Assembly: GCF_003334315.1 (NCBI RefSeq)
Contig: NZ_QOWR01000045.1
Source of the DNA: Escherichia coli
GTDB lineage: Bacteria > Pseudomonadota > Gammaproteobacteria > Enterobacterales > Enterobacteriaceae
DNA length: 41,110 bases
Strand: one strand, 5' to 3'
Shown here: one piece after another, positions 35,739 to 40,662 of the stretch
How the letters are laid out: each line of letters starts with the position of its first letter
How positions within the stretch are numbered: position 1 is the first letter of the stretch
Made by a program: the position numbers and the translations under genes
Notes under the pieces: generated by a model
The model's input: the letters and a program-made list of their open reading frames with translations, nothing else
What the model was told of the DNA's origin: nothing
The model's database searches: none

Positions 35739-36806
35739 ATGGATAAGAGTAAGCGCCATCTGGCGTGGTGGGTTGTCGGGTTACTGGCGGTGGCGGCTAT
35801 CGTGGCGTGGTGGCTGTTGCGCCCGGCAGGTGTGCCGGAAGGCTTTGCTGTCAGTAATGGGCGCATTGAAGCGACGGAAGTGGATATTGCCAGCAAAATT
35901 GCCGGGCGTATCGACACCATTCTGGTGAAAGAAGGCCAGTTTGTTCGCGAAGGTGAAGTGCTGGCGAAGATGGATACTCGCGTGTTGCAGGAACAGCGAC
36001 TGGAAGCCATCGCGCAAATCAAAGAGGCACAAAGCGCCGTTGCTGCCGCGCAGGCTTTGCTGGAGCAACGACAAAGCGAAACTCGTGCCGCACAGTCGCT
36101 GGTTAATCAACGCCAGGCAGAACTGGACTCCGTAGCAAAACGTCATACGCGTTCCCGTTCACTGGCCCAACGAGGGGCTATTTCTGCGCAACAGCTGGAT
36201 GACGATCGCGCCGCCGCTGAGAGCGCCCGAGCTGCGCTGGAATCGGCGAAAGCTCAGGTATCGGCTTCTAAAGCGGCTATAGAAGCGGCACGCACCAATA
36301 TCATTCAGGCGCAAACCCGCGTCGAAGCGGCACAAGCCACTGAACGGCGCATTGCCGCAGATATCGATGACAGCGAACTGAAAGCCCCGCGTGACGGACG
36401 CGTGCAGTATCGGGTTGCCGAGCCAGGCGAAGTGCTGGCGGCAGGCGGTCGGGTGCTGAATATGGTCGATCTCAGCGACGTCTATATGACTTTCTTCCTG
36501 CCAACCGAACAGGCGGGCACGCTGAAACTGGGCGGTGAAGCCCGGCTGATCCTCGATGCCGCGCCAGATCTGCGTATTCCTGCAACCATCAGTTTTGTCG
36601 CCAGTGTCGCCCAGTTCACGCCAAAAACCGTCGAAACCAGCGATGAACGGCTGAAACTGATGTTCCGCGTCAAAGCGCGTATCCCACCGGAATTACTCCA
36701 GCAGCATCTGGAATATGTCAAAACCGGTTTGCCGGGCGTAGCGTGGGTGCGGGTGAATGAAGAACTTCCGTGGCCTGACGACCTCGTGGTGAGGTTGCCG
36801 CAATGA
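35739..36806 (+). CDS. yhiI: HlyD-family membrane fusion protein YhiI
   Basis: 355-aa ORF starting [27 protein letters not shown] (N-terminal TM anchor), with an alanine/glutamine-rich coiled coil and a C-terminal beta-domain. Its stop overlaps the rbbA start. Confidence 0.9.
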
Positions 36807-39538
36807 CGCATCTGGAACTGGTTCCCGTCCCGCCTGTCGCGCAACTGGCGGGCGTGAGCCAGCATTATGGAAAAACCGTTGCGCTGAACAATATCACTCT
36901 CGATATTCCGGCCCGCTGTATGGTCGGGCTGATTGGCCCGGACGGCGTCGGGAAGTCGAGCTTGTTGTCGTTGATTTCCGGTGCCCGCGTCATTGAACAG
37001 GGCAATGTGATGGTGCTGGGCGGCGATATGCGCGACCCGAAGCATCGCCGCGACGTCTGCCCGCGCATCGCCTGGATGCCGCAGGGGCTGGGCAAAAACC
37101 TCTACCACACCTTGTCGGTGTATGAAAACGTCGATTTTTTCGCTCGCCTGTTCGGTCACGACAAAGCGGAGCGGGAAGTGCGAATCAATGAGCTGCTGAC
37201 CAGCACCGGGTTAGCACCGTTTCGCGATCGTCCGGCAGGGAAACTCTCCGGCGGGATGAAGCAAAAACTTGGGCTGTGCTGCGCGTTAATCCACGACCCG
37301 GAACTGTTGATCCTTGATGAGCCAACAACGGGGGTTGACCCGCTCTCCCGCTCCCAGTTCTGGGATCTGATCGACAGTATTCGCCAGCGGCAGAGCAATA
37401 TGAGCGTGCTGGTCGCCACCGCCTATATGGAAGAGGCCGAACGCTTCGACTGGCTGGTAGCGATGAATGCCGGAGAAGTGCTGGCAACTGGCAGCGCCGA
37501 AGAGCTACGGCAGCAAACGCAAAGCGCTACGCTGGAAGAAGCATTTATAAATCTGTTACCGCAAGCGCAACGCCAGGCGCATCAGGCGGTAGTGATCCCA
37601 CCGTATCAACCTGAAAACGCAGAGATTGCCATCGAAGCGCGCGATCTGACCATGCGTTTTGGTTCCTTCGTTGCCGTTGATCACGTTAATTTCCGCATTC
37701 CACGCGGGGAGATTTTTGGTTTTCTTGGTTCGAACGGCTGCGGTAAATCCACCACCATGAAAATGCTCACCGGACTGCTGCCCGCCAGCGAAGGTGAGGC
37801 GTGGCTGTTCGGGCAACCGGTTGATCCAAAAGATATCGATACCCGCCGTCGGGTGGGCTATATGTCGCAGGCGTTTTCGCTCTATAACGAACTCACCGTG
37901 CGGCAAAACCTTGAGTTACATGCCCGTTTGTTTCACATCCCGGAAGCGGAAATTCCCGCAAGAGTGGCTGAAATGAGCGAGCGTTTTAAGCTCAACGACG
38001 TTGAAGATATTCTGCCGGAGTCATTGCCGCTCGGCATTCGCCAGCGGCTTTCGCTGGCGGTGGCGGTGATTCATCGCCCGGAGATGTTAATCCTCGATGA
38101 GCCTACTTCTGGTGTCGATCCGGTGGCGAGGGATATGTTCTGGCAGTTGATGGTCGATCTCTCGCGCCAGGACAAAGTGACTATCTTCATCTCCACCCAC
38201 TTTATGAACGAAGCGGAACGTTGCGACCGCATCTCACTGATGCACGCCGGAAAAGTGCTTGCCAGCGGTACACCGCAGGAACTGGTTGAGAAACGCGGAG
38301 CCGCCAGTCTGGAAGAGGCATTTATCGCCTATTTGCAGGAAGCGGCAGGGCAGAGCAACGAAGCCGAAGCGCCGCCCGAGGTACACGACACCACCCACGC
38401 GCCGCGTCAGGGATTTAGCCTGCGCCGTCTGTTTAGCTACAGCCGCCGCGAAGCGCTGGAACTGCGACGCGATCCAGTACGTTCGACGCTGGCGCTGATG
38501 GGAACGGTGATCCTGATGCTGATAATGGGTTACGGCATCAGTATGGATGTGGAAAACCTGCGCTTTGCGGTGCTCGACCGCGACCAGACCGTCAGTAGCC
38601 AGGCGTGGACACTCAACCTCTCCGGTTCCCGTTACTTTATCGAACAGCCGCCGCTCACCAGTTATGACGAGCTTGATCGTCGGATGCGTGCGGGCGATAT
38701 CACGGTGGCGATTGAGATCCCGCCCAATTTCGGGCGCGATATCGCGCGTGGTACGCCTGTGGAACTCGGCGTCTGGATCGACGGAGCGATGCCGAGCCGT
38801 GCTGAAACGGTAAAAGGTTACGTGCAGGCCATGCACCAGAGCTGGTTACAGGATGTGGCGAGCCGACAATCGACACCCGCCAGCCAAAGCGGGCTGATGA
38901 ATATTGAGACGCGCTATCGCTATAACCCGGACGTAAAAAGCCTGCCAGCGATTGTTCCGGCGGTGATCCCGCTTCTGCTGATGATGATCCCGTCAATGCT
39001 AAGCGCCCTTAGCGTGGTGCGGGAAAAAGAGCTTGGGTCGATTATCAACCTTTACGTGACCCCCACCACGCGTAGTGAATTTTTGCTTGGTAAACAGTTG
39101 CCATACATCGCGCTGGGGATGCTGAACTTTTTCCTGCTCTGCGGCCTGTCGGTGTTTGTGTTTGGCGTACCGCATAAAGGCAGTTTCCTGACGCTCACCC
39201 TGGCGGCGCTGCTGTATATCATCATTGCCACCGGAATGGGGCTGCTGATCTCCACCTTTATGAAAAGCCAGATTGCCGCCATTTTCGGAACGGCGATTAT
39301 CACGTTGATCCCGGCGACACAGTTTTCCGGGATGATCGATCCGGTAGCTTCGCTGGAAGGGCCTGGACGTTGGATCGGCGAGGTTTACCCGACCAGTCAT
39401 TTTCTGACTATCGCCCGCGGGACGTTCTCGAAAGCGCTGGATCTGACTGATTTGTGGCAACTTTTTATCCCGTTGCTGATAGCCATCCCGCTGGTGATGG
39501 GCTTAAGTATCCTGCTGCTGAAAAAACAGGAGGGATGA
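36803..39538 (+). CDS. rbbA: Ribosome-associated ATPase RbbA (two ABC ATPase domains fused to an ABC-2 permease domain)
   Basis: 911-aa ORF with two Walker A motifs (GPDGVGKSS and GSNGCGKST), two ABC signature motifs (LSGGMKQK and LPLGIRQR) and a hydrophobic C-terminal domain. Confidence 0.93.
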
Positions 39539-40662
39539 TGCGCCATTTACGCAATATTTTTAATCTGGGTATCAAAGAGTTGCGCAGTCTGCTCGGTGAT
39601 AAAGCGATGCTGACGCTGATTGTCTTCTCGTTTACGGTGTCGGTGTATTCGTCAGCGACCGTTACGCCAGGATCGTTGAACCTCGCGCCGATCGCCATTG
39701 CCGATATGGATCAATCGCAGTTATCGAACCGGATCGTTAACAGCTTCTATCGTCCGTGGTTTTTGCCACCGGAGATGATCACCGCCGATGAGATGGATGC
39801 CGGACTGGACGCCGGACGCTATACCTTCGCGATAAATATTCCGCCTAATTTTCAGCGTGATGTCCTCGCCGGACGCCAGCCGGATATTCAGGTGAACGTC
39901 GATGCCACGCGCATGAGCCAGGCATTTACCGGCAATGGGTATATCCAGAATATTATCAACGGTGAAGTGAACAGCTTTGTCGCGCGCTACCGTGATAACA
40001 GCGAACCGTTGGTATCGCTGGAAACCCGGATGCGCTTTAACCCGAACCTCGATCCCGCGTGGTTTGGCGGGGTGATGGCGATCATCAACAACATTACCAT
40101 GCTGGCGATTGTATTGACCGGATCGGCGCTGATCCGCGAGCGTGAACACGGCACGGTGGAACACTTACTGGTGATGCCGATAACGCCGTTTGAGATCATG
40201 ATGGCGAAGATCTGGTCGATGGGGCTGGTGGTGCTGGTGGTATCGGGATTATCGCTGGTGCTGATGGTGAAAGGTGTACTGGGCGTACCGATTGAAGGCT
40301 CGATCCCGCTGTTTATGCTGGGCGTGGCGCTCAGTCTGTTTGCCACCACGTCAATCGGCATTTTTATGGGGACGATAGCGCGTTCAATGCCGCAACTGGG
40401 GCTGCTGGTGATTCTGGTGCTGCTGCCGCTGCAAATGCTTTCCGGTGGTTCCACGCCGCGCGAAAGTATGCCGCAGATGGTGCAGGACATTATGCTGACC
40501 ATGCCGACGACACACTTTGTTAGCCTCGCGCAGGCCATCCTCTACCGGGGTGCCGGATTCGAAATCGTCTGGCCGCAGTTCCTGACGCTGATGGCAATTG
40601 GCGGCGCGTTTTTCACCATTGCACTGCTGCGATTCAGGAAGACGATTGGGACAATGGCGTAA
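39538..40662 (+). CDS. yhhJ: ABC-2 family transporter permease YhhJ
   Basis: The track ORF begins upstream inside rbbA. The ATGATG at 39535-39540 overlaps the rbbA stop and is preceded by CAGGAGGG; the protein starts [25 protein letters not shown]. The start could equally be 39535. Confidence 0.85.
   Translation: MRHLRNIFNLGIKELRSLLGDKAMLTLIVFSFTVSVYSSATVTPGSLNLAPIAIADMDQSQLSNRIVNSFYRPWFLPPEMITADEMDAGLDAGRYTFAINIPPNFQRDVLAGRQPDIQVNVDATRMSQAFTGNGYIQNIINGEVNSFVARYRDNSEPLVSLETRMRFNPNLDPAWFGGVMAIINNITMLAIVLTGSALIREREHGTVEHLLVMPITPFEIMMAKIWSMGLVVLVVSGLSLVLMVKGVLGVPIEGSIPLFMLGVALSLFATTSIGIFMGTIARSMPQLGLLVILVLLPLQMLSGGSTPRESMPQMVQDIMLTMPTTHFVSLAQAILYRGAGFEIVWPQFLTLMAIGGAFFTIALLRFRKTIGTMA

What the first reader, a model, noticed from the sequence alone, without database searches (positions are those of the whole stretch)
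36803..39540. Start/stop overlaps link yhiI, rbbA and yhhJ into a translationally coupled unit
The yhiI stop overlaps the rbbA ATG (ATGA), and the rbbA stop overlaps the yhhJ ATGATG start. A membrane fusion protein, a fused ATPase-permease and a separate ABC-2 permease are therefore likely made in fixed stoichiometry as one export complex, although RbbA is also described as ribosome-associated.
Basis: seen in the sequence. Interest (0 to 1): 0.15.

Follow-up and report, generated by a model that had tools for sequence, protein, structure and literature searches.

The report
Overlapping genes of yhiI-rbbA-yhhJ operon
The start/stop overlaps are real, but they are the ordinary, already-annotated tight gene packing of a known E. 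coli operon for a putative three-part ABC export pump, and whether they couple translation was not tested.

Summary
The yhiI TGA (36804-36806) overlaps the rbbA ATG (36803-36805) as ATGA. The rbbA TGA (39536-39538) lies inside ATGATG (39535-39540). RefSeq and homology favour the second ATG as the yhhJ start, so that overlap is 1 nt (TGATG) rather than 4.

The window is E. coli, and the three genes are annotated exactly this way in K-12. A promoter table in the literature already lists 'yhiI-rbbA-yhhJ' as one operon.

In 80 other species the same MFP / NBD-NBD-TMD / TMD trio keeps this geometry. The MFP stop overlaps the RbbA start by 4 nt in 57-63 of 78 loci. The RbbA stop lies within -4..+3 nt of the YhhJ start in 71-73 of 79 loci, usually behind an AGGAG encoded by a conserved RbbA C-terminus (KKQE). 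About 30% of loci carry an outer-membrane channel gene just upstream.

This fits one polycistronic exporter operon with termination-reinitiation coupling. Coupling itself, the stoichiometry and the complex remain untested. Equimolar output is plausible for RbbA:YhhJ but not for the MFP. Overlaps of -4 and -1 nt are the commonest gene spacings in prokaryotes.

Verdict: ordinary, already known, low interest.

The parts
35378..35405 (+). Sigma-70-type promoter-like site, TAGACA-16-TACTAT with TG extension. Probable operon promoter.
   Evidence: Only promoter-like hit in 35200-41110. The same hexamers and spacer are listed for 'yhiI-rbbA-yhhJ' among constitutive RpoD promoters in PMC3946193.
35563..35676 (+). 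yhiY, an annotated 37-aa small ORF in the 334-nt leader between the promoter and yhiI.
   Evidence: RefSeq annotation. The peptide is 86-92% conserved in another E. coli strain and E. albertii, and only weakly at the same place in Pseudocitrobacter and Citrobacter. No NCBIfam family matched.
35739..36806 (+). yhiI, a HlyD-family membrane fusion (periplasmic adaptor) protein of 355 aa.
   Evidence: ORF. TIGR01730 RND_mfp scores 118.5 bits against a cut-off of 94.9, plus other adaptor families. Annotation.
36791..36794 (+). GAGG Shine-Dalgarno-like element for rbbA, inside the yhiI 3' end, 8 nt before the ATG.
   Evidence: Sequence. Duplex energy with the anti-SD is -7.1 kcal/mol.
36803..36806 (+). 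ATGA: the rbbA start codon overlaps the yhiI stop codon by 4 nt.
   Evidence: The same -4 geometry occurs in 57-63 of 78 homologous loci.
36803..39538 (+). rbbA, 911 aa: two ABC ATPase domains fused to one ABC-2 membrane domain.
   Evidence: NF033858 scores 1597.6 bits against a cut-off of 1050. Pfam domains. Walker A at 45 and 309, Walker B at 168 and 428.
39528..39533 (+). AGGAGG Shine-Dalgarno for yhhJ, formed by the rbbA codons Q-E-(G). It lies 4 nt before ATG2 and 1 nt before ATG1.
   Evidence: Sequence. Duplex energy -10.8 kcal/mol. Q-E is coded CAGGAG in 45 of 55 homologues. SD energy is <=-4.4 in 65/79 loci against 21% at internal control positions.
39535..39540 (+). ATGATG containing the rbbA TGA (39536-39538). 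The yhhJ start is at ATG2 (1-nt overlap) or ATG1 (4-nt overlap).
   Evidence: RefSeq uses ATG2. Homologues start M-R.
39538..40662 (+). yhhJ, an ABC-2 permease of 374 aa and paralogue of the RbbA membrane domain.
   Evidence: Pfam ABC2_membrane_3 over residues 25-364, E=1.2e-34. BLASTP against RbbA residues 521-911 gives 28% identity, E=2e-27.
40669..40733 (+). Hairpin (core stem 40673-40682 / 40696-40705) followed by a U-rich stretch. Probable intrinsic terminator ending the operon.
   Evidence: Folding gives -26 kcal/mol, z=-3.58, with 1 of 200 shuffles as stable. The simple scan missed it because the loop is long.

Best explanation
This is the known E. coli operon (yhiY)-yhiI-rbbA-yhhJ. It is probably transcribed from one promoter just after yhiJ and ended by a hairpin after yhhJ.

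It encodes the inner-membrane and periplasmic parts of a putative tripartite ABC-2 exporter. RbbA carries both ATPase domains and one membrane domain. YhhJ supplies the second membrane domain. YhiI is the periplasmic adaptor. The outer-membrane channel is encoded elsewhere in E. coli but next door in many other species.

The 4-nt (ATGA) and 1-nt (TGATG) overlaps put each downstream start codon at the spot where the upstream ribosome terminates, next to a Shine-Dalgarno element embedded in the upstream gene's last codons. The terminating ribosome can therefore reinitiate (termination-reinitiation). Translation of rbbA would then depend largely on yhiI, and yhhJ on rbbA, giving output YhiI >= RbbA >= YhhJ.

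Shown here: the overlaps, the domain content, the embedded SDs, and conservation of the geometry and gene order. Inferred: co-transcription, coupling, the physical complex, and export function.
For: Overlaps. Identity and annotation: (100% identical to many E. coli genomes; present in 5,414 of 5,426 genomes at >=80% coverage).

Domains.

Transcription: there is a single upstream promoter-like site with the same hexamers and spacer as the published one, and none inside the genes (1 found against 3.8 expected from shuffles). Terminator-like hits inside are at chance level (8 against 6.7). A strong hairpin follows yhhJ.

Comparative survey of 80 species from Alpha-, Beta-, Gamma- and Deltaproteobacteria, Verrucomicrobia and Phycisphaerales. 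Trio order is conserved. At junction 1, -4 nt occurs in 57-63/78 loci and -1 in 4-5. At junction 2, 71-73/79 loci lie within -4..+3 nt. An SD upstream of yhhJ homologues occurs in 65/79 loci against 21% in controls.

A NodT-family outer-membrane factor gene lies directly upstream in 24/80 loci.

The paralogous E. coli operon cecR-ybhGFSR has distances of -1, -8, -8 and +10 nt.

Literature: 4 of 5 native E. coli ATGA pairs showed coupling. About 20 nt of spacing abolishes coupling. Short overlaps are 4.5-fold enriched for heteromeric complexes (PMC6728339, PMC10666635). rbbA and yhhJ were reported up-regulated together in one RNA-seq study.
Against: There is no direct test of coupling, co-transcription or complex formation for these genes.

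Both downstream genes have their own SD. The junction RNAs are no more structured than shuffles (z=0.16 and -0.47), so nothing obviously blocks independent initiation. bioBF is a precedent for an ATGA pair without coupling.

The SD at junction 1 is only weakly enriched in homologues (29/78 against a 21% control).

No solved structure of any of the three proteins or a close relative was found, and the substrate is unknown.

Biochemical literature assigns truncated RbbA a ribosomal role.

The proteins were absent from the one quantitative proteome supplement I could search.
Confidence: 0.7

Rival explanations
1. The overlaps are only compact operon packing. The three genes share an mRNA, but each downstream gene is initiated de novo at its own Shine-Dalgarno, so expression ratios are set by RBS strength and not by upstream translation.
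For: Both starts have their own SDs (-7.1 and -10.8 kcal/mol). The junction RNAs are not unusually structured. bioBF behaves this way. Most homologues have a +1..+3 nt gap rather than an overlap at junction 2, with an SD at ideal spacing.
Against: The exact -4 geometry is conserved at junction 1 in 57-63/78 species, although the SD there is weak. 4 of 5 tested E. coli ATGA pairs were coupled, and gaps of up to +10 nt still support reinitiation.
Confidence: 0.2
2. RbbA is primarily a soluble, ribosome-bound translation factor, and its position between a membrane fusion protein gene and a permease gene has no functional meaning.
For: Older biochemistry is summarised in PMC12096078. A C-terminally truncated RbbA modestly changes in-vitro translation, by 1.3-2.1-fold.
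Against: Full-length RbbA carries an ABC-2 membrane domain. The MFP-RbbA-YhhJ order is conserved across phyla, often with an outer-membrane factor gene. The best NBD matches are DrrA/NodI-type exporter ATPases. The paper on its cellular role was retracted. The in-vitro work uses a truncated protein because the full-length one is unstable.
Confidence: 0.05
3. A programmed -1 frameshift near the A6 run at the rbbA 3' end makes a single RbbA-YhhJ fusion (NBD-NBD-TMD-TMD).
For: The yhhJ frame is open for 84 nt upstream of ATG1. Rare 1283-1286-aa fusion proteins exist in databases.
Against: The fusions are singletons or tiny clusters with different indels, as expected from sequencing errors or sporadic mutations. 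The A run is AAGAAG in most homologues, and the SD-like element lies downstream of the run, not upstream. No locus among the 80 has a natural fusion.
Confidence: 0.02

Closest known systems
E. coli cecR-ybhG-ybhF-ybhS-ybhR operon (YbhFSR ABC-2 exporter with the YbhG adaptor)
   Same: It has a HlyD-type adaptor, an ATPase with two NBDs and two ABC-2 permease units. Genes are tightly packed, at -1, -8, -8 and +10 nt. It is regarded as a putative drug exporter (PMC7190983).
   Different: In Ybh both permeases are separate genes, whereas RbbA has one fused to the ATPase. The overlaps are 8 nt rather than 4 and 1 nt. Ybh has a linked TetR-type regulator (cecR); no regulator gene is annotated next to yhiI, only the small ORF yhiY.
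Native E. coli ATGA gene pairs shown to be coupled by termination-reinitiation (hyfHI, astDB, ydbH/ynbE, menDH; Huber et al. 2019, 2023)
   Same: They are co-directional, have a 4-nt or 1-nt stop/start overlap and an SD inside the upstream gene, and often encode subunits of one complex.
   Different: The yhiI/rbbA and rbbA/yhhJ pairs have never been tested. Here there are two consecutive coupled junctions.
MacAB-TolC tripartite ABC efflux pump
   Same: An ABC transporter works with a periplasmic adaptor and an outer-membrane channel (my knowledge). YhiI gives a weak MacA-family match.
   Different: MacB is a homodimer of NBD-TMD with a different membrane fold (my knowledge). RbbA/YhhJ is an ABC-2 pseudo-heterodimer with both NBDs on one chain.
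ABC-F ribosome-binding ATPases (EttA, Uup, YbiT, YheS)
   Same: They have two tandem NBDs on one chain. RbbA is reported to bind the E site and behaves similarly in some in-vitro assays.
   Different: ABC-F proteins have no membrane domain. RbbA has one and sits in an exporter operon.

Membership tests
Overlapping gene pair coupled by termination-reinitiation (sensu Huber et al.) | Co-directional neighbours with a stop-to-start distance of -8..+10 nt | tested here: met
   -4 nt for yhiI/rbbA, and -1 nt (or -4) for rbbA/yhhJ.
Overlapping gene pair coupled by termination-reinitiation (sensu Huber et al.) | Shine-Dalgarno element inside the 3' end of the upstream gene | tested here: met
   GAGG lies 8 nt before the rbbA ATG (-7.1 kcal/mol). 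AGGAGG lies 4 nt before yhhJ ATG2 (-10.8 kcal/mol).
Overlapping gene pair coupled by termination-reinitiation (sensu Huber et al.) | Both genes on one transcript | tested here: inconclusive
   The pattern scans fit: one upstream promoter-like site, none inside, and a hairpin after yhhJ. A published table lists the operon. I examined no transcript data.
Overlapping gene pair coupled by termination-reinitiation (sensu Huber et al.) | Downstream translation depends on upstream translation reaching the junction | not testable with these tools
   This needs a reporter assay with premature stops. No ribosome-profiling or proteome values could be retrieved.
Adaptor-dependent ABC-2 exporter (YbhGFSR-like) | HlyD-type periplasmic adaptor encoded with the transporter | tested here: met
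   YhiI scores above the cut-off for TIGR01730. An adaptor gene lies upstream of the RbbA homologue in 78/80 loci; the other two loci are cut off by a contig end.
Adaptor-dependent ABC-2 exporter (YbhGFSR-like) | Two NBDs with Walker A, Walker B and signature motifs | tested here: met
   Two ABC_tran domains. Walker A GPDGVGKS and GSNGCGKS, Walker B LLILDEP and MLILDEP. The signature is LSGGMKQK in NBD1 but the deviant LPLGIRQR in NBD2.
Adaptor-dependent ABC-2 exporter (YbhGFSR-like) | Two ABC-2 membrane domains per transporter | tested here: met
   ABC2_membrane_3 in RbbA (569-903) and in YhhJ (25-364). The two are paralogous, E=2e-27.
Adaptor-dependent ABC-2 exporter (YbhGFSR-like) | Outer-membrane channel partner | tested here: inconclusive
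   No such gene lies next to the E. coli locus. A NodT-family gene lies directly upstream in 24/80 other species. TolC use in E. coli is an assumption.
Adaptor-dependent ABC-2 exporter (YbhGFSR-like) | Physical complex and ATP-driven export of a substrate | not testable with these tools
   No solved structure of these proteins or close relatives. No substrate is reported in the papers found.
ABC-F translation factors | Soluble protein of two NBDs with no membrane domain | tested here: not met
   RbbA has a C-terminal ABC-2 membrane domain. Its best NBD family matches are exporter ATPases of the DrrA/NodI type.

The most novel reading that the evidence does not exclude
RbbA has a double life that the gene overlaps help to partition. 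RbbA chains that meet a co-translationally made YhhJ (and YhiI) become an uncharacterised tripartite ABC-2 exporter. Unpartnered or C-terminally clipped chains release a soluble NBD-NBD fragment that acts at the ribosomal E site. The conserved C-terminal KKQE motif would then be under dual constraint, as protein sequence and as the embedded AGGAG that sets the RbbA:YhhJ ratio.
Probability: 0.08. Interest if true: 0.4.

Novelty: already known. Interest (0 to 1): 0.08.

Why it matters
It matters little as a discovery. The genes, their overlaps and the operon are already in RefSeq and in the literature, and stop/start overlaps of 4 and 1 nt are the commonest gene spacing in prokaryotes.

There is some modest value. 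The comparative survey shows that the trio and its junction geometry are conserved across several phyla, often with an outer-membrane channel gene. That strengthens the view that RbbA is first of all the ATPase of an uncharacterised export pump, with no solved structure and no known substrate. It also puts the 'ribosome-associated' label in perspective, since part of its support has been retracted.

Tried and rejected
1. Protein synthesis or abundance data to test stoichiometry. Li et al. 2014 is not held. The supplements of the Mori et al. 2021 absolute proteome contain none of the three names.

2. RNA structure that would occlude the downstream RBS, a hallmark of obligate coupling. The junction folds are no different from shuffles.

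3. Rfam scan of 35200-41110 for a leader or regulatory RNA found nothing at E<=1. A 'riboswitch entropy' paper that names the operon refers to a site about 6.6 kb away and is irrelevant.

4. PDB sequence searches for RbbA and YhhJ gave only generic NBD hits and distant ABCG hits.

5. The search for homologous proteins with RbbA returned only near-identical E. coli sequences. It was useless for diversity but exposed the rare frameshift fusions.

6. Programmed frameshifting at the A6 run was considered and rejected, as set out under the third rival explanation.

7. The GTG at 39454 as the yhhJ start (85-nt overlap) was rejected. Homologues and the RbbA-TMD alignment start at M-R.

8. My homology-based start picking gave a few odd distances (-37, +77, +136, +332). 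Inspection of the printed junctions shows ATGA, TGATG or TAGTATG at those sites too, so these are start-picking or assembly artefacts. I therefore report both the homology-picked and the nearest-start counts.
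Full report
**Observation.** The window region is E. coli. Bases 35300-40900 are 100% identical to many complete E. coli genomes, and 5,414 of 5,426 genomes carry the region at >=80% coverage.

The ORF list gives yhiI at 35739..36806, rbbA at 36803..39538 and an open yhhJ frame ending at 40662. The sequence reads GCCGCAATGACG at the first junction, with the rbbA ATG at 36803-36805 and the yhiI TGA at 36804-36806. At the second junction it reads CAGGAGGGATGATGCGC, with the rbbA TGA at 39536-39538 and in-frame ATGs at 39535 and 39538.

The rbbA start is forced. ATG 36803 is the only start codon between the previous in-frame stop and codon 18, and the RbbA family profile aligns from residue 12.

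For yhhJ, RefSeq (a chicken isolate and K-12 MG1655) starts at the second ATG, giving 374 aa and a 1-nt overlap. Homologues begin M-R-x-L. The AGGAGG at 39528-39533 is 4 nt from ATG2 but only 1 nt from ATG1. The working overlap is therefore most likely TGATG rather than ATGA.

**What the genes are.**
- YhiI matches periplasmic adaptor (HlyD/RND_mfp) families.
- RbbA scores 1597.6 bits on the NCBIfam RbbA equivalog. It contains ABC_tran at 28-176, ABC_tran at 293-436 and ABC2_membrane_3 at 569-903.
- YhhJ is ABC2_membrane_3 over residues 25-364. It is a paralogue of the RbbA membrane domain, at 28% identity and E=2e-27.

So RbbA + YhhJ together make up a complete ABC transporter (2 NBD + 2 TMD), with YhiI as the adaptor. 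No solved structure of these proteins or close relatives exists in the PDB copy searched.

**Transcription signals.** In 35200-41110 the only sigma-70-like site is TAGACA-16-TACTAT at 35378-35405, just after yhiJ. The same hexamers and spacer are listed as the constitutive promoter of 'yhiI-rbbA-yhhJ' in PMC3946193.

No promoter-like site lies inside the three genes, and terminator-like hits inside are at chance level. Directly after the yhhJ stop there is a hairpin (core stem 40673-40682 / 40696-40705; -26 kcal/mol; z=-3.58) followed by a U-rich stretch. The annotated 37-aa ORF yhiY (35563-35676) sits in the leader, so the transcript probably starts with yhiY. No Rfam family matches.

**Comparative test.** A scan of one genome per species with RbbA gave 80 loci. 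They range from Enterobacterales to Alpha-, Beta- and Deltaproteobacteria, Verrucomicrobia and Phycisphaerales. I located the adaptor, RbbA and YhhJ homologues by BLASTP against stop-to-stop frames and measured stop-to-start distances.

| Junction | Loci scored | Distance classes |
|---|---|---|
| 1: adaptor stop to RbbA start | 78 | -4 nt (ATGA/GTGA): 57 homology-picked, 63 nearest in-frame; -1 nt: 4-5 |
| 2: RbbA stop to YhhJ start | 79 | -4: 2-3; -1: 14-15; 0..+3: 54-56 |

By the homology-picked starts, 74/79 loci at junction 2 lie within -8..+10 nt. The E. coli -1 state is shared by the Enterobacterales and a few others; the family mode is +2.

The RbbA C-terminus is conserved as L-[KR]-K-Q-[EA]-x, and Q-E is coded CAGGAG in 45 of 55 cases. 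An anti-SD duplex of <=-4.4 kcal/mol is present upstream of the YhhJ start in 65/79 loci, against 21% at random internal positions. At junction 1 the SD is weaker, at 29/78.

So the tight geometry, and not just the sequence, is conserved over large evolutionary distances, where the adaptor is about 55% identical. That argues for selection on juxtaposition.

A NodT-family outer-membrane factor gene lies directly upstream of the adaptor gene in 24/80 loci. This supports a tripartite exporter. The paralogous E. coli operon cecR-ybhG-ybhF-ybhS-ybhR is similarly packed, at -1, -8, -8 and +10 nt.

**Mechanism.** Huber et al. showed tight coupling by termination-reinitiation for 4 of 5 native E. coli ATGA pairs and found that an SD usually helps (PMC6728339). 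They also showed that about 20 nt of spacing abolishes coupling, that -4 and -1 are the most common distances, and that 24% of E. coli unidirectional pairs lie in -8..+6. Short distances are 4.5-fold enriched for subunits of heteromeric complexes (PMC10666635).

The yhiI/rbbA and rbbA/yhhJ junctions meet all the sequence criteria of that class. The most likely reading is one mRNA on which ribosomes finishing yhiI restart on rbbA, and ribosomes finishing rbbA restart on yhhJ.

This remains an inference. The junction RNAs are not unusually structured (z=0.16 and -0.47) and both genes have their own SDs, so independent initiation cannot be excluded. bioBF is a precedent.

'Fixed stoichiometry' is only partly justified. 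1:1 is sensible for RbbA:YhhJ, but adaptors are normally in excess, and reinitiation caps rather than fixes the ratio. I could not retrieve quantitative expression data. One RNA-seq study lists rbbA and yhhJ as up-regulated together.

**Ribosome link.** RbbA is still used as an 'E-site binder' in vitro, as a truncated protein lacking the membrane domain, with 1.3-2.1-fold effects (PMC12096078). The paper on its cellular role (Babu et al. 2011) was retracted in 2025 over image concerns. The domain architecture and the conserved exporter context argue that transport is the primary role.

**Verdict.** It is ordinary and of low interest. The only loose ends are that this exporter family has no structure, no known substrate and a doubtful second identity.

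Noticed in passing
window 35563-35676 (+): The annotated small ORF yhiY (37 aa) lies between the operon promoter and yhiI, 62 nt before the yhiI ATG. The operon is probably yhiY-yhiI-rbbA-yhhJ. The peptide is conserved in another E. coli strain and E. albertii (86-92%) and only weakly in Pseudocitrobacter and Citrobacter. It matches no NCBIfam family.
   Followed up: partly
window 39451-39540 (+); proteins P0001-P0010: The yhhJ frame is open for 84 nt upstream of ATG1. About ten database entries are RbbA-YhhJ fusion proteins of 1272-1286 aa, caused by different indels in the last ~80 nt of rbbA, including the A6 and G3 runs. All are singletons or tiny clusters, so they are probably sequencing errors or sporadic mutants.
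   Followed up: partly
loci L012, L013, L016-L018, L022, L023, L032, L038, L040, L042, L043, L046, L052-L054, L059, L061, L062, L066, L068, L073, L076, L080 (upstream of the adaptor gene): A NodT-family outer-membrane efflux subunit gene (TIGR01845, 347.7 bits) lies directly upstream of the adaptor gene, on the same strand, in 24 of 80 species. It is absent from the E. coli locus.
   Followed up: partly
window 39517-39535 (+) and the homologous positions in L002-L081: The RbbA C-terminus L-[KR]-K-Q-[EA]-x is conserved across phyla, and its Q-E codons (CAGGAG in 45/55) form the Shine-Dalgarno for yhhJ. This is a possible dual constraint, on protein and on RBS.
   Followed up: partly
window 38024-38047 (+), RbbA residues 408-415: The ABC signature motif of the second NBD is the deviant LPLGIRQR, against LSGGMKQK in NBD1. 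This suggests that one of the two ATP sites is degenerate.
   Followed up: no
literature (PMC3083400, PMC12169533): The 2011 PLoS One paper linking RbbA to YhjD, the ribosome and oxidative phosphorylation was retracted in June 2025 for unresolved image concerns.
   Followed up: yes
window 40827-41110 (-): Downstream of the operon lies yhhI, an ISAs1-family / ISEc1 transposase gene. It is annotated as a pseudogene with an internal stop in one strain. A REP-like GCCGGATAAGGCGTTTA lies at about 40737-40753.
   Followed up: no
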